The position numbers were made by a program, and so were the translations under genes. The notes beneath the pieces are model-generated. The model saw only the letters and a program-made list of their open reading frames with translations. It was not told where the DNA came from and searched no databases. A DNA stretch of 61,879 nt from NCBI GenBank assembly GCA_017987825.1, contig JAGNSY010000001.1, positions 1-61,879 of the forward strand, read 5' to 3'. Source of the DNA: Sphingorhabdus sp. (GTDB lineage: Bacteria > Pseudomonadota > Alphaproteobacteria > Sphingomonadales > Sphingomonadaceae). This document shows positions 34,160-43,231 of the stretch, piece by piece. The first letter of the stretch is position 1. Every line of letters begins with the position of its first letter.

Positions 34160-34166
34160 ATTGATG

Positions 34167-34342
34167 ATGGCGGGACTGCCCGGCACGAGCTGAAGAGAAC
34201 ATCCCTGAGGCGATAATATCATCCAAGGGAGCTATCCCTGCCCGGGCCACTCTGGTTACAGTGGGGTCCGAAGCATATGGTGCCCACCTGACGTAATGGC
34301 GTCAGAGGATATTCCGGAAAACGACCCATGGTGGTTCCGCTA
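34167..34342 (+). ncRNA. ssrS: 6S RNA
   Basis: Conserved zapA-ssrS-ygfA synteny; terminal pairing GGCGGGACTGCC/GGTGGTTCCGCT; inner stems ATCCCTGA/TCAGAGGAT and GGGAGCTAT/ATGGTGCCC; ends approximate. Confidence 0.85.
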
Positions 34343-34356
34343 CGTTTTTCAAAGGG

Positions 34357-35489: not shown

Positions 35490-36509
35490 ATGTTGAAGAC
35501 CAATTCTTCCTGCAAACGTTTCCGCAACGCATTTCTGCGTCCTGCGGCAGTGTCTGCAATCGCACTCACAAGTACTCTGCTTGCGCCTGGCCAAGCGGCA
35601 TGGGCTGCAGGCACGCTGGCCGGCACCAATATCGAAAATATTGCGACTGCCAGTTACGACACGGGTTCGGGCACGATTGATATCCAGTCGAACACCTCGG
35701 TGATCCTTGTCGACGAACTGCTCGACGTCACAGTGTCAAGCAGCACCCCCGGCGACGTTCCGACAACACCGGGCGCTACCAATGCCGTGATCACTTACCG
35801 GGTGACCAACAACGGCAATGGTCCTGAAACATTTGGACTGACGCCCAATGTTGCGAACAGCGGTGACGATTTTGATCCCACGCTGGCTCAGATTGTCATC
35901 GATACGAACAACAACGGCGTTTACGATCCCGGCGTCGATACCGTCTATGTAGCGGGCACCAACGATCCGCTACTGTCGCCCGACCAGAGCATCACCATTT
36001 TCGTCCTGACGAATATCGCGCCAACTCAAGCCAATGGCGAACGCGCAAATGTAAGCCTGGTTGCTGCTGCAACGACGGGCACGGGTGCACCCGGCACGAC
36101 ATTCGCAGGTGCTGGCGAAGGTGGTGGCAATGCCGTGGTCGGATCGAGCGGCGCAGATGGCGAAGCCAGCGGTTTTCTCCGCGTTGACGCTGCGTCGGTA
36201 GCTCTGGCTAAATCGGCAACCGTCGCAGATCCTTTTGGCGGTACGAATGCAGTACCCGGGGCCACAATCACTTACACAATTTTGGCGACGGTGAGCGGCG
36301 CCGGAACGTTGAACAATCTGGTCATCAATGACCCAGTCCCTGTTGGCACAACTTATGTTGCAGGCAGCATCACCCTACAGGCCGCCAGCCTGACTGACGC
36401 AGCAGACGTCGATGCAGCCAATTTCAATGGCACACGTGTGAGTGTTCAATTGGGCAACGTTCCCGCCGGTCAAACCCGCACCGTCACCTTCCAGACAGTT
36501 ATACAGTGA
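35490..36509 (+). CDS. Secreted DUF11-like filament subunit candidate A (N-terminal donor hairpin, C-terminal incomplete DUF11 domain)
   Basis: Signal peptide ending 'QAAWA|'; mature 'AGTLAGTNIENIATASY'; Ca-loop-like 'DTNNNGVYDPGVD'; 'VALAKS..PGATITYTI..INDPVPVGTTYVAGS..GQTRTVTFQTVIQ*'. Confidence 0.8.
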   Translation: MLKTNSSCKRFRNAFLRPAAVSAIALTSTLLAPGQAAWAAGTLAGTNIENIATASYDTGSGTIDIQSNTSVILVDELLDVTVSSSTPGDVPTTPGATNAVITYRVTNNGNGPETFGLTPNVANSGDDFDPTLAQIVIDTNNNGVYDPGVDTVYVAGTNDPLLSPDQSITIFVLTNIAPTQANGERANVSLVAAATTGTGAPGTTFAGAGEGGGNAVVGSSGADGEASGFLRVDAASVALAKSATVADPFGGTNAVPGATITYTILATVSGAGTLNNLVINDPVPVGTTYVAGSITLQAASLTDAADVDAANFNGTRVSVQLGNVPAGQTRTVTFQTVIQ

Positions 36510-36976
36510 GCATCGATATGAAAAAGACCATTTTTGCTTTGCTTTCCCTAGTTGCCGCACCCTCGGTAGCTGCGCCGCTAGAATTGGCCAGCGACGTGTT
36601 TGTTGAACGCGAACATAAGCGTCCTGACGGTTCGGTTGCTACGATATTGGAGGAACCCAAACTGGTTCTTCCTGGTGATCAATTGGTGTTCGTCGTGCGT
36701 TACAAGAATGTCGGCGCACAACCCGCATCCAAATTCACCGTCACAAACCCCATCCCGCGCGCGGTTGCCTTTTCGGGCACCGCCGATGGCACTGAAATCG
36801 TGTCGATCGATGGCGGAAAGAACTGGGGTCTTCTGACACAGCTTAAAGTCAGCAAAGCCGACGGCACCTTCCGTCCGGCTCTTCCCGGTGACGTCACGCA
36901 CGTCAAATGGAATTTGAATCAAACGCTTGCGGCCGGATCGGCCGGCAAGCTCGTCTTTCGCGGGGTTGTACGATGA
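36506..36976 (+). CDS. Small secreted DUF11-like protein B (acceptor-only; cap or chaperone candidate)
   Basis: Signal peptide 'MKKTIFALLSLVAAPSVA|'; 'PGDQLVFVVRYKNVG..TNPIP..SIDGGKNW..VTHVKW..AGKLVFRGVVR*'; GTGA overlap with A (alternative ATG at 36518). Confidence 0.78.
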   Translation: MSIDMKKTIFALLSLVAAPSVAAPLELASDVFVEREHKRPDGSVATILEEPKLVLPGDQLVFVVRYKNVGAQPASKFTVTNPIPRAVAFSGTADGTEIVSIDGGKNWGLLTQLKVSKADGTFRPALPGDVTHVKWNLNQTLAAGSAGKLVFRGVVR

Positions 36977-37044
36977 CCTCCACCGAAAACCGTAAGGATT
37001 GCTGCGGCAAAAGCAATCAAACCCTCAGTAACAGGAGCATAAGC

Positions 37045-38094
37045 ATGACCAGTAAGCTTAAATTCCTCGTTGCCGCGAGCACCCTTCCGGCTGTCATAAT
37101 GAACGCGAGTTCCGCTTATGCCGCCGGAACCCTTGTCGGCACCGATATTACCAACAATGTTTCCGTCGCCTATCAGGTAGGCGGCGTCAGCCAAACTGCG
37201 GCTACGGATTCGAACATGTTCGAAGTTGACCGCAAAATTTTGTTTACCGTGCAGGAAGATGCCAATGTCACGACCTCGGTCGTGCCAGGTGAGCAAAATG
37301 CCTATACGACATTTGTTGTCAGCAATACGTCGAACGATACTCTGGATTTCTCGCTTAACCCGACGCAATTGGGTGGTGGCACGGCGACCCACGGTGGTAC
37401 CGACGTTTTTGATGTCAGCAATCTGGAAGTTTTTGTCGATAGCAATGGCAACAACCAATATGATTTTGGCGTCGACACAGCGACCACAATCAACGATCTG
37501 GCTCCCGACACGTCGGTTCGTGTCTTTATTGTTGGAGACGTTGCGCTGACCCAGACCAATGGTCAGGTTGCAGGCGTCACGCTTTCGGCAACCGCTCTGA
37601 ATAGCAACAACACGGCAATCACCGCTGCAACCGACGCAACGGCCAATACTGATGGCGTTGAAACCATCTTTGCCGACACGGGCCGTGACGGCATTGAATC
37701 GGATGAGGACGATTTCACAGTCAGCACTGCAAGCCTGACTGTCACCAAATTGAGCCGTGTCGTTCGCGATAACCTCAATGGTGCGGGAACCAGTGCAGAT
37801 GCAACCAATCCGAAGGCCGTGCCTGGCGCGACCGTCGAATATTGCATCGTTGTTGCAAACACGGGTTCACAGACGGCGACCAATGTTGCCGTATCGGACG
37901 ATCTTTCGCTCGTTCCCGACGTTACTTTTGATGCAAGCTTCACGCCCGCGACCGACGGCACTGTCGTTAGTGGTAATACCTGCACGGCAGGCGGTGGAAC
38001 AGGCTCATTCGCCAGTAACATCGTGTCAGGCACGCTGACCAACATTGGTGCGGGTCAAACCCGTACGCTGGTTTTCCGCGTAACCATCGACTGA
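37045..38094 (+). CDS. Secreted DUF11-like filament subunit candidate C (paralog of A)
   Basis: AGGAG SD; signal peptide ending 'SAYA|'; 'AGTLVGTDITNNVSVAY'; 'DSNGNNQYDFGVD'; 'LTVTKLS..PGATVEYCI..VSDDL..GQTRTLVFRVTID*'. Confidence 0.8.
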   Translation: MTSKLKFLVAASTLPAVIMNASSAYAAGTLVGTDITNNVSVAYQVGGVSQTAATDSNMFEVDRKILFTVQEDANVTTSVVPGEQNAYTTFVVSNTSNDTLDFSLNPTQLGGGTATHGGTDVFDVSNLEVFVDSNGNNQYDFGVDTATTINDLAPDTSVRVFIVGDVALTQTNGQVAGVTLSATALNSNNTAITAATDATANTDGVETIFADTGRDGIESDEDDFTVSTASLTVTKLSRVVRDNLNGAGTSADATNPKAVPGATVEYCIVVANTGSQTATNVAVSDDLSLVPDVTFDASFTPATDGTVVSGNTCTAGGGTGSFASNIVSGTLTNIGAGQTRTLVFRVTID

Positions 38095-38103
38095 GGAAAA
38101 AGG

Positions 38104-38143
38104 GGGCGGCGGGCAGCTGTACTGCCTGTCGCCCTCACTTCTT
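38104..38143 (+). terminator. Intra-operon stem-loop (attenuating terminator or mRNA stabiliser) between C and D
   Basis: GGGCGGCGGGCAG-ctgta-CTGCCTGTCGCCC, 13-bp stem with 2 G-U pairs, then TCACTTCTT. Confidence 0.65.
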
Positions 38144-41100
38144 ATGAGCACATTAACCACATCCGTTATCTTCCGCGCCGGAACGCTGGCGGCAGCTACC
38201 CACTTGGCTGCCGCCTGCCTTCCCGCGCATGCGCAAAGCTTGCCGAATATCATCAGCAACACCGCGCAGGCCGAATGGACATCGGGCGGGCAAACCCTAT
38301 CGCGGCCTTCGAACAGTGTAGACATCGTTGTGGATCGATCCAATCCGCAACCAGCCACGCTCGAAGTCTTACATTTTACGAATTCCGGCTCTTCTAGCTC
38401 GGTTCCTCTTCCACAAACCATGTGCCGAGGAACAAACGGGCTTCAACCGGTCAATCTACAGGGCGTTTTTGCTGGATATTCGACAAATCCGGCCTCAATA
38501 ATGCCCGCAACGGCCATTCGGGCGGGCGAACCACTTGTCTTGAAGGTCATCGCACCGGGCCAGAACACAAATCCAGGTGCGATCGACAGTTTTGAAGCGC
38601 AGATTGTAACCGATAGCGGCGATAGCGAGCGCATCACGCTGACCGAGTCAGCGGCGAACAGCTCAACTTTCTACGCATTAATCAACACCAAGGCCGCACC
38701 GCCGGCAGCTGTGCAGGGCGATTGCGTTTTGTCGGTCCGTCCGGGCGATCAGCTGCATTTCGACCTTGGAAACGCGCAAAATGGCACTCCGATTGCCGGC
38801 GCTGATGTCGACATCTTGGTTGATCCCTTTGGCTTGACCTTTGATAGTGCTGACGGAACGGCCGTTACCGGCACCCAAGTTACAATTGTCGATGCCAATA
38901 CAGGCCTTCCGGCGCAGGTTTTCGGTGACGATGGGGTTTCGTCGTTCCCGAGCTCGATTGTCGCGGGCAGCACTATTACCGACAGTAGCGGCGCAACCTA
39001 TGCCTTTTCGCCGGGATTCTACCGTTTTCCGTTCCTGAGCCCGGGCGATTATCGTCTCGTCATCGGCCCACCGGCGCCCTACACCCATCCCTCGGTGGCA
39101 ACACCTGCCGAAATCGCTCTGCTAACGCGGCCAGATGGCGGCCAGTTTGTGATCGCACCGGGATCTTACGGCGGTATCATCACATTGAGTGACCCGGCGC
39201 CGGTGCGCATAGACGTCCCTATGGATCGCCCGGGCGGTAGCCTGCAATTGCGCAAAACGACCTCCGCGGTAACCGCAATGCCAGGCGACGTGGTGCAATA
39301 TCGTATCGAGGTGCGGAATCCCGATCGCTCGCGAAATAGCGGACCGGTTACGGTTACCGATATATTACCTAATTCCATGCGGTTACGCCTCGAAAGTGTG
39401 CGCTACAACGGCGTGCAGGTAACTGCAACGGCTGCTGCCGATGGGTCCCAATTTTCGGTCGCTCTGCCACCACTTGCGGGCGGCGGTTCGGGGCTTTTGA
39501 CCTATTTGGCGGAAGTTCGGGTCGATGCCCGTCCCGGTGATGCAATAAACCGTGCCTCTGCGCGCGATAACCGTGGCGCAGTCAGCGAAACCGTTGATGC
39601 GGCCATCCGTATCGTTCGCGACGGAATTTCTGAGCGATTCACGCTTATCGGACGCATTACCGAAGGCGGCTGTTCGGTTGACCCACGTCAGGCGAAGGGA
39701 ATCGCAGGCGTCCGTGTGATGCTGCAGGATGGCAGCTACACCGTTACCGATCAGGATGGCCGTTATCATTTCGAAGGCCTCGTGCCCGGCCTGCACGTGG
39801 TTCAGGTCGACCCGACCACATTCCCGCTCGATCAGGCTCCGGTTGATTGCGCCAAGAACACGCGCAGCGCCGGAAATGCTATCTCGCGTTTCGTTGAAGG
39901 ACGTGGTGGCAGCCTGAAACGCGCCGATTTCCGGGCCAAACAGGTTGCGCCGCGTGAAAATGCCGCACAAATGGCTGTTCCGCTCCCGGATGCAGCTACC
40001 GATCAGGAGGCCGCTGGTGCGGAGCGCGACTGGTTCGCCGGGCAACAGCCGGGCGTCGGTTTCCTCTTCCCCGAAACCGGGCATAATCCGCGCGTTAAAA
40101 CAATCCGCGTCGCTTTCAAGCATCTCCCACGCCAAAAAGTTGAACTGTCGATCAATGGCAAAGCCGTAGATTCACTCAGCTATGATGGCACCAAAAAGAG
40201 CGCTGACGGCAAGATGCGTGTGGCAATCTGGCGCGGTATCGGCATCGAACAGGGCAACAACCGCCTGGTCGCGAAGGTTACCGACAATGACGGCAACCTC
40301 ATCGAAACAGTCGAGCACAATGTCTATTACGCCAATGCGCCCATCAATGCGCAATTTGTAAAGGAAAAGTCGGTTCTCCTCGCCGATGGCGTCACGCGTC
40401 CGCGTATTGCGGTTCGCTTGACCGACCGCAACGGCAAACCGATCCCGCATGGCGCTGTTGGCGATTTTCAGGTCACCGACCCTTATCGCGCTGCGGTCGA
40501 AATTGACGCCCAGCAGGCCCAACAGCTGTCGGGCCTCGAACGCGCCGCGCCGGTATGGCGCGTGCATGGCGACGAAGGCATCGCTTATATCGAACTCGAA
40601 CCGACCACAGCTTCAGGAACCGTCGCGATCACTCTTCCGTTCCAGGATGGAGAAGTAAAGCGCACACAGCGCGTCGAAACTTGGCTCGATCCGGGCGGCC
40701 GCCCCTGGACCGTAGTTGGCTTTGCTGCCGGAACCCTTGGCTTTAACAAGCTTTCAGAAGGCCTTGAGGATCTGGTTGGCGAAGACGACCAGCTGAACGT
40801 CGACGGTCGTATCGCGCTCTATGCCAAGGGCCGGGTGAGCGGCAAATGGCTGATGACGCTGGCTTATGACAGCGACAAGAAGGCTGATGACGCCCGCTTC
40901 GCAGGCACCATCGATCCGCGCCGCTATTACACTGTTTATGCCGACCGCAGCGAGCAGCGTTACGACGCCGCATCGATCCGTCGCCTGTATCTGAAGCTCG
41001 AACGCCCGCAATTCTATGCACTGTTCGGTGACTATCAAACCGGCATCGATGAACCGGAACTCGCCCGTTATCAGCGCAGCTTCAACGGCATCAAGGCCGA

Positions 41101-43231
41101 ATATCGCAGCGACGAAGTGCATGCGCAGGCCTTTGCCGCCGACACGCCCTATCGCTATCGTCGCGAGGAAATCCAGGGAACCGGCCTGACCGGCCCCTAT
41201 GCGCTCGCCGCGCGCGATATCCTGGCCAACAGCGAACGCATCACCATCGAAACGCGCGATCGCCTGCAGTCGAACATCATCATCGACCGCAAAAACCTTG
41301 TGCGCCATATCGATTACGACATCGACTATCTCGCCGGAACGCTGCGTTTCCGTGAACCCATTTTGTCGCGCTCGAGCGGCCTCAACCCGCAATTCATCAT
41401 CGCCGAATATGAAGTCGATGGTATTGGCAAGCGTGTCAACAATGCAGGTGGTCGCGTCAAATGGCAGTCGCCCGATCAGAAGCTGCAGATTGCCGCCACC
41501 GCGATCCACGACGAAACCGATACCGACAAGACCAACCTCGTCGGCGCCGATGTCCGCTATCGCCCGACCGCCAACACCGAATTGCGCGCCGAATTTGCAG
41601 CTACCGACGGCAAGGCCAATGCAGGCAGTGCAACCGCCGATGCCGGCGGCGCCTCGGCCATGCTGCTCGAAGCCGAGCATCATGGCTCGAAGCTTGACGT
41701 GCTGGCTTATTATCGTCGCCAGTCGGCCCGCTTCGGTGTCGGCCAGACCAACCGTAGCGAAGTCGGTACGGAGAAGTTTGGCCTTGATGGCCGCTATCGC
41801 CTGACCGACAAGCTGTCGATCTCGGCAATCGGTTATCAGGAAGACTATATCGATACCGGTGCGCGTCGCATCGCGGGCTCGACCGAACTCGAATATCGCG
41901 ACGACAAAGCTTCGCTGCGCGCTGGTATTACCCATGCCGATGACAAGCTGGCTGACGGTTCGACCAACAAATCGACACTTGCGCGTATCGCCGGTTCTTA
42001 CAAAGTTACCAGCAAGCTCGAACTTGACGCGCAGACCGAATTCGCACTCGGCGGCGAAGACGAAAGCATCGACTTCCCTGCCCGCCACCGTCTCGGTGCG
42101 CGCTATGCGATCCGCAATGATATCGCGCTGGTCGGCAGCTACGAAATTGCCAAGGGTGAGAATATCGACGCACGCACCGCGCGTCTCGGATTTGACATCG
42201 CCCCTTGGGCAGGCGGCCGCATCGTGGCGAGCGCCAACCAGCAGGATATCGGCGAATTCGGTGCACGCAGTTTTGCCTCTTATGGCCTCGCCCAATCATT
42301 CAAGATCAACGACAAATGGTCGGTCGACTTCACCCTTGATGGCAACCAAACCATCGGCGGCTTTGATCGCAGCGATGTGATCAACCCGCTTCAGCCCGTT
42401 GCATCGGGTGGCTTCCTGGGTAGCGATGGCACGCTGACCGAAGACTTTGTCGCTATCACCAGCGGCGCCAGCTATCATGGCGAACGCTGGAGCTGGACGG
42501 GTCGTGCCGAATGGCGCGATGGTGACTCCACCCAGCGTTATGGTCTGACGACCGCAATCCTGCGCCAGATTGGCGAAGGCAAGGCTGTCGGTGGAGCGCT
42601 CAACTGGTTCAAGGCAAAGCAGAACGGCGGCGCATCGACGACAACTGCACAGGCCGAAGTCAGCTGGGCCAACCGCCCCTCGGGCAGCCAGTGGTCGTTC
42701 CTCAACAAGACCGAATATCGCTATGATGCAGTCAAGAACGCAACCGCAGGCCTTCCCGGCCCGGTCGGTGGCGCGCCGTTGCTGGTGAGTGGAGACGTAA
42801 AGTCGACCCGCATCATCAACAGCCTGTCGGTCAACTACACCCCGATCGACGAACGCGATGGCAACTTCATCGAACGCGGCGAATACGCGCTTTTCTGGGG
42901 CACCCGCTACAACACCGACCGCTTTGGCGCGGACGATGTGAAGGGCTGGAGCAATGTTGTCGGCGCGGATCTGAAGTTCGACCTGTCGGATGTCGCCGAT
43001 ATCGGTGCCTCTGGCACGGTGCGTATCGGCACCGGTGGGCAGAATATCGCCTGGTCGGGTGGACCGACGCTGACTGTGACGCCATTCAAAAACGCCAATG
43101 TAACGCTCGGCTTTAACTTTGTCGGCTTCGAAGATCGCGATTTCGAAGAGGCGCGCTACACCCGCAGCGGCCCCTTCCTGACCTTCAAGCTGAAGTTCGA
43201 CCAGACCAGCTTTCAGGGCCTGGGGCTGTAA
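38144..43231 (+). CDS. Large outer-membrane protein D: N-terminal donor hairpin, Ig/CnaB-like domains, one complete DUF11-like domain, C-terminal beta-barrel
   Basis: Signal peptide ending 'PAHA|'; 'IISNTAQAEW..SNSVDIVV'; DUF11 'LQLRKT..PGDVVQYRIEVRN..TDILP..AINRASA'; SdrD-B-like 'GVRVMLQDGSYTVTDQDGRYHF'; alternating amphipathic strands in the C-terminal half ending 'FLTFKLKFDQ'. Confidence 0.8.
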   Translation: MSTLTTSVIFRAGTLAAATHLAAACLPAHAQSLPNIISNTAQAEWTSGGQTLSRPSNSVDIVVDRSNPQPATLEVLHFTNSGSSSSVPLPQTMCRGTNGLQPVNLQGVFAGYSTNPASIMPATAIRAGEPLVLKVIAPGQNTNPGAIDSFEAQIVTDSGDSERITLTESAANSSTFYALINTKAAPPAAVQGDCVLSVRPGDQLHFDLGNAQNGTPIAGADVDILVDPFGLTFDSADGTAVTGTQVTIVDANTGLPAQVFGDDGVSSFPSSIVAGSTITDSSGATYAFSPGFYRFPFLSPGDYRLVIGPPAPYTHPSVATPAEIALLTRPDGGQFVIAPGSYGGIITLSDPAPVRIDVPMDRPGGSLQLRKTTSAVTAMPGDVVQYRIEVRNPDRSRNSGPVTVTDILPNSMRLRLESVRYNGVQVTATAAADGSQFSVALPPLAGGGSGLLTYLAEVRVDARPGDAINRASARDNRGAVSETVDAAIRIVRDGISERFTLIGRITEGGCSVDPRQAKGIAGVRVMLQDGSYTVTDQDGRYHFEGLVPGLHVVQVDPTTFPLDQAPVDCAKNTRSAGNAISRFVEGRGGSLKRADFRAKQVAPRENAAQMAVPLPDAATDQEAAGAERDWFAGQQPGVGFLFPETGHNPRVKTIRVAFKHLPRQKVELSINGKAVDSLSYDGTKKSADGKMRVAIWRGIGIEQGNNRLVAKVTDNDGNLIETVEHNVYYANAPINAQFVKEKSVLLADGVTRPRIAVRLTDRNGKPIPHGAVGDFQVTDPYRAAVEIDAQQAQQLSGLERAAPVWRVHGDEGIAYIELEPTTASGTVAITLPFQDGEVKRTQRVETWLDPGGRPWTVVGFAAGTLGFNKLSEGLEDLVGEDDQLNVDGRIALYAKGRVSGKWLMTLAYDSDKKADDARFAGTIDPRRYYTVYADRSEQRYDAASIRRLYLKLERPQFYALFGDYQTGIDEPELARYQRSFNGIKAEYRSDEVHAQAFAADTPYRYRREEIQGTGLTGPYALAARDILANSERITIETRDRLQSNIIIDRKNLVRHIDYDIDYLAGTLRFREPILSRSSGLNPQFIIAEYEVDGIGKRVNNAGGRVKWQSPDQKLQIAATAIHDETDTDKTNLVGADVRYRPTANTELRAEFAATDGKANAGSATADAGGASAMLLEAEHHGSKLDVLAYYRRQSARFGVGQTNRSEVGTEKFGLDGRYRLTDKLSISAIGYQEDYIDTGARRIAGSTELEYRDDKASLRAGITHADDKLADGSTNKSTLARIAGSYKVTSKLELDAQTEFALGGEDESIDFPARHRLGARYAIRNDIALVGSYEIAKGENIDARTARLGFDIAPWAGGRIVASANQQDIGEFGARSFASYGLAQSFKINDKWSVDFTLDGNQTIGGFDRSDVINPLQPVASGGFLGSDGTLTEDFVAITSGASYHGERWSWTGRAEWRDGDSTQRYGLTTAILRQIGEGKAVGGALNWFKAKQNGGASTTTAQAEVSWANRPSGSQWSFLNKTEYRYDAVKNATAGLPGPVGGAPLLVSGDVKSTRIINSLSVNYTPIDERDGNFIERGEYALFWGTRYNTDRFGADDVKGWSNVVGADLKFDLSDVADIGASGTVRIGTGGQNIAWSGGPTLTVTPFKNANVTLGFNFVGFEDRDFEEARYTRSGPFLTFKLKFDQTSFQGLGL

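What the first reader, a model, noticed from the sequence alone, without database searches (positions are those of the whole stretch)
35637..39550. Isopeptide triad split between subunits predicts covalent Lys-Asn crosslinking without sortase
Known: CnaB-like Ig folds form autocatalytic Lys-Asn isopeptide bonds using a nearby acidic residue, and this has been proposed for DUF11-type domains. Seen: the intact domain in D has Lys (codon 39254), Asp (39359) and Asn (39548). In A, Lys (36210) and Asp (36330) are in the acceptor and Asn (35637) is in the donor. In C they are Lys 37747, Asp 37897 and Asn 37153. The D donor has Asn 38258. Complementation in trans would give intermolecular bonds, like a natural SpyTag/SpyCatcher polymer, which could also be useful as a protein-ligation tool.
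Basis: partly seen in the sequence, partly recalled or inferred. Interest (0 to 1): 0.85.

Follow-up and report, generated by a model that had tools for sequence, protein, structure and literature searches.

The report
Self-locking split-domain Gram-negative pilus
Four neighbouring genes of a Gram-negative bacterium encode surface proteins in which one bond-forming stalk domain is split, with its lysine and aspartate at the tail of a subunit and its asparagine at the head; the subunits are predicted to plug together head to tail and would likely lock with a self-made covalent bond, a kind of fibre I found described only in Gram-positive bacteria and archaea.

Summary
Observation confirmed: all ten codons are right. 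The fold is DUF11/CLIPPER, which is CnaA-like, not CnaB-like. D's intact domain aligns Lys/Asp/Asn on the crystallographic isopeptide triad of 9IFR. A and C end two strands early and carry those strands, with the Asn, as an N-terminal hairpin. The triad is kept in 128 of 136 C relatives at 34-67% identity. Evidence for pairing between subunits: D has a donor but no open acceptor; 9 relatives have a Lys/Asp acceptor but no donor; a natural tandem fusion joins acceptor and next donor into a normal domain; a C dimer model is head-to-tail (ipSAE 0.57, best control 0.00). B is an acceptor that has lost the Lys and Asp. The bond itself is inferred: no Lys-Asn distance could be read and nothing was assayed. 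The mechanism has precedents (BsaA, archaeal thread, engineered DogTag/DogCatcher); I found no paper on this Gram-negative system. This scan already noted the same idea in other genomes. Verdict: new variant of a known kind, strongly supported in silico.

The parts
35490..36509 (+). Gene A, minor pilin/adaptor candidate (339 aa from the ATG at 35490): signal peptide, donor hairpin, Ig-like middle domain, truncated CLIPPER acceptor
35607..35720 (+). A donor hairpin (last two strands of a CLIPPER domain); Asn59 codon at 35637
   Evidence: 53/53; strands 8-19 and 22-34; aligns to positions 99-133 of D's intact domain, E 0.016, weak
36189..36506 (+). A acceptor: CLIPPER domain lacking its last two strands; Lys250 (36210), Asp290 (36330)
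   Evidence: covers positions 3-98 of D's intact domain and stops there, E 2.5e-12
36518..36976 (+). Gene B: secreted acceptor-only domain with a dead triad: Ser29 (codon 36590) at the Lys place, Asn81 (codon 36746) at the Asp place; likely a reversible cap or chaperone for donor hairpins
   Evidence: Asn at the Asp place in 52/56, Ser or Gly at the Lys place in 54/56; no donor hit
37045..38094 (+). Gene C, major pilin candidate (349 aa from the ATG at 37045, AGGAG upstream); same three-part plan as A, more variable between species
37123..37236 (+). C donor hairpin; Asn83 codon at 37153
   Evidence: 133/136; interface of copy 2; 50/50
37726..38091 (+). C acceptor; Lys281 (37747), Asp331 (37897)
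   Evidence: 132/136, 135/136; interface of copy 1
38102..38136 (+). 15-pair stem-loop between C and D, likely a terminator/attenuator or RNA stabiliser that favours C over D
   Evidence: z -5.2, 0 of 200 shuffles
38144..43231 (+). Gene D, 1695 aa: signal peptide, donor hairpin, Ig-like stalk with one intact CLIPPER domain, large C-terminal outer-membrane beta-barrel (anchor and likely export pore)
38234..38335 (+). D donor hairpin with no open acceptor in the same chain; Asn39 codon at 38258
   Evidence: 45/45; E 0.054, weak
39227..39625 (+). Intact CLIPPER domain of D: Lys371 (39254), Asp406 (39359), Asn469 (39548); predicted ordinary intramolecular isopeptide bond
   Evidence: 9IFR, E 1.9e-8
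41435..43192 (+). Run of long amphipathic strands of D's predicted barrel
   Evidence: mean pLDDT 73 for residues 736-1695; searches match only outer-membrane barrels in general

Best explanation
A, C and D carry the Asn-bearing last two strands of a CLIPPER/DUF11 domain at their N-termini, and A and C end in the matching Lys/Asp-bearing truncated domain; the subunits are predicted to plug together head to tail into a surface fibre and would likely lock each joint with an autocatalytic Lys-Asn isopeptide bond, without sortase. Shown from sequence: the split, its boundaries, the triad and its conservation, the orphan donor and orphan acceptors. Modelled: the head-to-tail C-C joint. Inferred: after Sec export and signal-peptide cleavage, the hairpin of an incoming subunit completes the acceptor of the previous one, burying Lys, Asp and Asn in one hydrophobic core; the Asp catalyses loss of ammonia as in 9IFR. 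Likely order, from tip to cell: an acceptor-only adhesin with intact Lys/Asp (two candidates on contig C218 of this genome), A, many C, then D, whose hairpin would lock into the last C and tie the fibre to its outer-membrane barrel. B cannot react (Lys and Asp lost) and most likely caps donor hairpins reversibly in the periplasm; a non-covalent tip cap is the alternative. The order of subunits, B's role and export through D are inference only.
For: (1) Triad mapping to the solved CLIPPER bond (PMC12617251 section 2.4). (2) Acceptors of A, B and C cover positions up to 98 of D's 133-residue intact domain and stop there; donors of A and D align to 99-133. 126 of 136 C relatives end exactly at that column, 134 within 2 residues. 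(3) Triad kept in 128 of 136 relatives at 34-67% identity and in phase with the buried strand face. (4) D has a donor but no open acceptor (45/45 keep the Asn); 9 distinct proteins have a C-terminal Lys/Asp acceptor and no donor: two on C218 and those of L041, L046, L048, L049, L050, L051, L058. (5) P0122 is a natural tandem of two subunits 54% identical; acceptor 1 runs straight into donor 2 with the Asn 11 residues on, against 10 in D's intact domain and 11 from C's mature N-terminus. Longer relatives (P0304, P0305, P0314, P0340, P0353) keep an N-terminal donor-type segment and a C-terminal acceptor around an internal intact domain. (6) ESMFold2 C dimer: ipSAE 0.57, best of 3 controls 0.00; the mark was reached by 20 of 30 solved homodimers and 1 of 23 single chains (rough here, own alignment); runs agree in at least 96% of contacts, pLDDT at least 88. 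The interface is one-way: acceptor of copy 1 (with Lys and Asp) on the hairpin of copy 2 (with Asn), register 253:19, 255:17, 257:15, 259:13; the C-terminal residues 322-323 of copy 1 and the N-terminal 1-3 of copy 2 are both in it. A split domain can pass by likeness to solved CLIPPER/Ig folds. (7) The A monomer model aligns in order, loosely (rmsd about 10 A, Z 9-10), on three tandem integrin leg domains, a hint that it is open, not self-closed. (8) Lys and Asp are lost together in B and in the A of L056. (9) Precedent: BsaA N35/E56/K74 mutants lose oligomers (10.1101/2024.11.04.621531, passages).
Against: No bond was observed. The C donor did not align to D's intact domain in the profile test (E 0.43), and the A and D donor alignments are weak. 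Coupling analysis on 187 C sequences showed no excess of donor-acceptor pairs (11 of the top 150, 9% expected). 8 of 136 relatives lack one triad residue, and some CLIPPER domains lack the bond (PMC12617251). Many other residues are as conserved as the triad. P0122 is one unnamed record on 2 contigs. The barrel of D matches no usher better than other barrels. No fibre has been seen.
Confidence: 0.72

Rival explanations
1. Donor-hairpin fibre without covalent locking: subunits pair in trans, but the triad is kept only as a buried polar network, or reacts rarely.
For: No distance or bond shown; 8 of 136 relatives lack a triad residue; B does without Lys and Asp; in BsaA the Asn mutant still forms oligomers stable until boiled (10.1101/2024.11.04.621531, passages).
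Against: A buried Lys, Asp and Asn kept in 128 of 136 distant relatives, at the exact places of the solved bond in 9IFR, is hard to explain without reaction; B's joint loss of Lys and Asp suggests the two states are selected apart.
Confidence: 0.12
2. Covalent joints but no long fibre: a short fixed stalk (tip-A-C-D) or a cell-envelope scaffold rather than a C polymer.
For: Nothing here measures length; orphan donor and acceptors need only a few joints; which side of the membrane D's N-terminal part lies on is unknown.
Against: C-C pairing passes the complex test; tandem fusion of two C-type units exists; C has its own strong ribosome site and a stem-loop after it; contigs from RNA libraries cover C end to end in 2 runs of one study (no measure of level).
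Confidence: 0.09
3. Circularly permuted domain: each hairpin folds back onto its own C-terminal domain, giving monomers with an intramolecular bond and an inserted middle domain.
For: Monomer A is modelled with high confidence including the hairpin (pLDDT 90-96); CnaA-like folds tolerate insertions (PMC12617251, passages); conservation alone cannot tell cis from trans.
Against: Linkers of about 2 residues at both ends of the middle domain; one-way intermolecular interface; it leaves D's donor, B and the acceptor-only proteins without partners; fusion order in P0122.
Confidence: 0.05

Closest known systems
CLIPPER/DUF11 (PF01345) intramolecular isopeptide domain, PDB 9IFR (PMC12617251; abstract, passages and section 2.4 read)
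   Same: Same family; same Lys-Asp-Asn triad; D holds one intact copy.
   Different: There the bond is inside one chain of a fibrillar adhesin; here the domain is cut before its last two strands and the halves sit at opposite ends of pilin-like subunits. The passages I read treat intramolecular bonds only ('donor strand': 0 hits).
BsaA fibres of Clostridium perfringens, TasA family, 'donor-strand exchange and lock' (10.1101/2024.11.04.621531; abstract and passages)
   Same: Donor Asn plus acceptor Lys and acid form an enzyme-free intermolecular bond; supported there by mutants.
   Different: TasA fold, one donor strand, Glu catalyst, SipW peptidase, Gram-positive; no DUF11 mention. Here CLIPPER fold, two-strand hairpin, Asp catalyst, outer-membrane barrel partner, dead acceptor B.
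Archaeal thread, Saci_0406 (PMC9715654; passages)
   Same: Head-to-tail donor-strand filament with an intermolecular isopeptide bond and a donor-only partner.
   Different: Bond between the N-terminal amine and an Asn two subunits away; archaeal; different fold.
DogTag/DogCatcher, engineered split of RrgA domain 4 (PMC8878318; passages)
   Same: Same logic of split: Asn-bearing beta-hairpin plus a partner with the Lys and the acid.
   Different: Man-made, Glu catalyst, from a streptococcal adhesin domain; the window holds a natural split of a CnaA-like domain, so likely orthogonal.
Chaperone-usher pili (type 1, P pili; from passages of PMC11821415, PMC13721041 and my own knowledge)
   Same: Gram-negative, N-terminal donor completes a truncated Ig fold, tip adhesin first, large outer-membrane barrel in the operon.
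   Different: Non-covalent, single donor strand, PapD-type chaperone and PF00577 usher; no usher match in this 73% complete genome, and D's barrel ties between PapC/FimD and unrelated barrels.
A-ENA sporesilk of Bacillus thuringiensis (PMC13111695; passages)
   Same: Autocatalytic intermolecular isopeptide polymer.
   Different: Helical hairpin subunits, up to ten bonds, spores; no Ig fold.

Membership tests
CLIPPER/DUF11 isopeptide domain | Match to PF01345 / TIGR01451 | tested here: met
   C and D above both cut-offs; A above TIGR01451 only; B below both
CLIPPER/DUF11 isopeptide domain | Lys on first strand, catalytic Asp, Asn on penultimate strand | tested here: met
   D intact domain aligns residue for residue with 9IFR; A and C acceptors align Lys and Asp on D's
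CLIPPER/DUF11 isopeptide domain | All three residues inside one continuous domain (intramolecular bond) | tested here: not met
   Met for D's own domain; in A and C the domain ends before the Asn strand
CLIPPER/DUF11 isopeptide domain | Bond actually forms | not testable with these tools
   Needs MS or a structure
   Catalyst is Asp and the Asn strand is followed by one more strand; definitions from PMC12617251
TasA/BsaA fibres | TasA-family sequence or fold | tested here: inconclusive
   No TasA-family Pfam hit; TasA not listed in fold searches, which does not exclude it
TasA/BsaA fibres | Donor Asn with acceptor Lys and acid on the neighbouring subunit | tested here: met
   All three in the modelled intermolecular interface; distances not read
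Chaperone-usher pili | PF00577 usher | tested here: not met
   D has no PF00577 hit; none in the genome, 73% complete
Chaperone-usher pili | Structural likeness of D's barrel to PapC/FimD | tested here: inconclusive
   PapC Z 11.0 (rmsd 6.3, 296 aligned), tied with porins
Chaperone-usher pili | PapD-type chaperone in the operon | tested here: not met
   The four genes match DUF11-type families only; the rest of the genome was not searched for PapD
Sortase-assembled pili | Sortase and C-terminal LPXTG sorting signal | tested here: not met
   No PF04203 match in the genome, 73% complete; A and C end on the last acceptor strand

The most novel reading that the evidence does not exclude
An undescribed, widespread class of Gram-negative pili: a naturally split CLIPPER domain makes every joint, from tip adhesin to outer-membrane anchor, an enzyme-free covalent bond; a triad-dead acceptor (B) serves as a reversible chaperone that hides donor hairpins until assembly at D's own barrel; and the family is a natural library of Tag/Catcher pairs of a new fold.
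Probability: 0.45. Interest if true: 0.88.

Novelty: new variant of a known kind. Interest (0 to 1): 0.72.

Why it matters
Covalently linked pili are textbook property of Gram-positive, sortase-using bacteria; Gram-negative pili are held non-covalently. A fibre that cross-links itself outside a two-membrane cell would add a pilus class and an assembly route, and give a function to a large set of 'conserved repeat' DUF11 operons (1612 representatives at E up to 1e-30, a count that includes long repeat proteins; 7 of 301 sampled genomes of the phylum). It is cheap to test with one gel and one MS run. The natural hairpin/acceptor pairs, with a ready-made non-reacting version (B), are candidates for protein ligation orthogonal to Spy, Snoop and Dog systems.

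Tried and rejected
Single-sequence PDB searches with A and with P0122 found nothing real. Fold searches of the A model found only general Ig-like folds, no solved pilin; the middle domain resembles 9IFR at Z 8.1, rmsd 3.4, 113 aligned, without a triad. TLP-1 fibrils (PMC11494351), GhlA/GhpA grappling hooks (10.1101/2025.08.19.671072), tafi (PMC11821415; its 'DUF11' hits were DUF1102), F-ENA (PMC12357932) and Pam pili (PMC13278184) were checked by passages and are different systems; the Azospirillum hit was DUF1127. Mean-field coupling on 187 C sequences (effective 165) was underpowered: three in-register donor-acceptor pairs (19-252, 18-254, 12-262) appear at ranks 51-123, with no overall excess; not used as support. 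The Lys column of B is ambiguous: hhalign and strand phase give Ser29, hmmalign gives Phe32, where 9 of 56 have Lys on the outward face. D's barrel could not be assigned to a family. RNA-library contigs cannot rank genes; patchy cover of A, B and D means nothing. The search 'TIGR01451 or fimbri' was swamped and uninformative. The promoter scan gave no more than chance. No look-alike earlier notes by place. Supplements of the papers were not read; only the first 300,000 of 525,587 characters of PMC13721041 are held.
Full report
Setting. The stretch lies in a four-gene run A-B-C-D on the + strand (35490-43231), after a tRNA-Asp and before unrelated dehydrogenase genes. The closest named records are Sphingorhabdus. 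The order A-B-C-D recurs in most of the 59 loci fetched, including Deltaproteobacteria, Gallionella and Rhodanobacter records. All four proteins begin with what reads as a Sec signal peptide (my reading of the sequence; no predictor was run). All match DUF11/TIGR01451 models, B below the cut-offs.

Checking the observation. All ten codons are as stated. DUF11 has been renamed CLIPPER; its structure 9IFR shows a CnaA-like fold with a Lys715-Asn806 bond and a nearby Asp (PMC12617251, section 2.4). A profile of D's intact domain (41 sequences) hits 9IFR at E 1.9e-8 and places Lys371, Asp406 and Asn469 on those residues.

The split. Against D's 133-residue domain, the C-terminal domains of A, C and B align up to position 98 (E 2.5e-12, 2.9e-13, 4.6e-9) and end there; the N-terminal segments of A and D align weakly to 99-133 with Asn on Asn (E 0.016, 0.054); C's did not align in this test. 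The AlphaFold2 model of mature A (pLDDT 93.7) shows that segment as two strands, 8-19 and 22-34. Of 150 listed representatives, I kept the 136 of 300-420 aa; 126 end exactly on the last acceptor strand and 128 keep Asn, Lys and Asp together, at 34-67% identity to C. In the loci, after length filters and leaving out L057 and L059, counts are 53/53, 52/53, 52/53 for A, 50/50 for C (2 of 52 rows dropped as acceptor-only paralogues) and 45/45 for D. Each triad residue is the one polar residue on the hydrophobic face of its strand. Conservation is not unique to the triad: A has 15 invariant columns.

Cis or trans. Four lines point to pairing between chains. First, D has a donor hairpin but its only CLIPPER domain is complete; B and nine longer proteins have an acceptor but no donor. 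The nine keep Lys and Asp; two lie on contig C218 of this genome, one with a P-domain passenger, and in L041, L046, L048 and L051 such a gene sits just upstream of A. Second, P0122 is a natural tandem of two C-type units (54% identical) in which acceptor 1 continues into donor 2 at the spacing of an intact domain; it is a single record. Third, the C dimer model is one-way head to tail: ipSAE 0.57 in three runs, best control 0.00, contacts agreeing at 96% or more, pLDDT 88 or more; the mark was reached by 20 of 30 solved homodimers and 1 of 23 single chains, roughly, since my alignment was used. The interface lists hold Lys and Asp of copy 1 and Asn of copy 2, but the Lys-Asn pair is not among the 25 best pairs, and a split domain may pass by likeness to known folds. 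Fourth, linkers around the middle domain are about two residues and the A monomer aligns loosely, in order, on three tandem integrin domains, which fits an open rod. Coupling analysis gave no support.

B and D. B has Asn at the catalytic Asp place in 52 of 56 and Ser or Gly at the Lys place in 54 of 56, so it should bind a hairpin without reacting. The A of L056 shows the same double change. Since reactive tip candidates exist, I think B more likely a reversible cap than a tip; this is inference. A second B-like gene stands alone on contig C66. Residues 736-1695 of D model as an Ig-like domain and a large barrel (pLDDT 73) that matches porins, PapC, FimD and SlpA at tied scores. No usher or sortase family match was found in the genome, which is 73% complete. 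A 15-pair stem-loop follows C (z -5.2). Contigs from RNA libraries, identical to the window, cover C end to end in two runs of one study and in pieces in two runs of another; this shows presence, not level.

Mechanism. Most likely: secreted subunits add at the cell surface, each inserting its hairpin into the open domain of the previous one; burial of Lys, Asp and Asn triggers the CLIPPER reaction across chains; a tip adhesin starts and D's own hairpin ends and anchors the chain. Trans pairing I put near 0.9, the bond given pairing near 0.8.

What is known. Enzyme-free intermolecular isopeptide fibres exist: BsaA (abstract and passages), archaeal thread (passages), A-ENA (passages). The same hairpin-versus-catcher split was engineered as DogTag/DogCatcher (passages). 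I found no paper on a split-DUF11 or covalently locked donor-strand pilus in Gram-negative bacteria in searches; the library lacks most subscription journals. This scan's own notes report the same reading in other genomes; I had reached it, with CLIPPER and BsaA, before looking, and did not check their DNA.

Verdict. New variant of a known kind, interest 0.72. Only the bench can show the bond.

Noticed in passing
G000 contig C218:1-765 and 857-1765 (L072, L075): Two tandem acceptor-only proteins with intact Lys and Asp, far from the operon; one has a proprotein-convertase P-domain passenger. Tip adhesin candidates for this fibre.
   Followed up: partly
G000 contig C66:175-795 (-): A second B-like, triad-dead acceptor (40% identical to B) standing alone after a penicillin-binding-protein-like gene.
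   Followed up: partly
G000 contig C209:13048-22884 (+): A related locus: DUF11-repeat adhesin-like genes followed by two ORFs similar to the N-terminal stalk and the barrel of D, so D-like barrels also serve other DUF11 proteins; its first gene may end in a truncated domain too.
   Followed up: partly
window about 35900-35940 (A) and 37430-37470 (C): Conserved Asp/Asn-rich loop in the middle domain with the strongest internal couplings; looks like a calcium-binding loop (motif recalled, not tested).
   Followed up: no
window, C acceptor, Cys313 and Cys359 (ORF numbering): Two conserved cysteines that co-vary; likely a disulfide, as in many CLIPPER domains.
   Followed up: no
L056:7187-8308: The A homologue of this Rhodanobacter record has Ser and Asn in place of the acceptor Lys and Asp, the same dead pattern as B.
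   Followed up: partly
G188:C1:274483-280060 and 463075-468657: One genome of the same family carries two complete A-B-C-D-type operons.
   Followed up: no
P0304, P0305, P0314, P0340, P0353: About 900-aa relatives (one named Deinococcus) with the same donor-first, acceptor-last ends around extra internal domains: long-subunit versions of the fibre.
   Followed up: partly
window 34160-34356: Gap between a zapA-like gene and a formyltetrahydrofolate cyclo-ligase-like gene, the usual place of 6S RNA (recalled); RNA-library contigs fall here, but Rfam gave no match at its threshold.
   Followed up: partly
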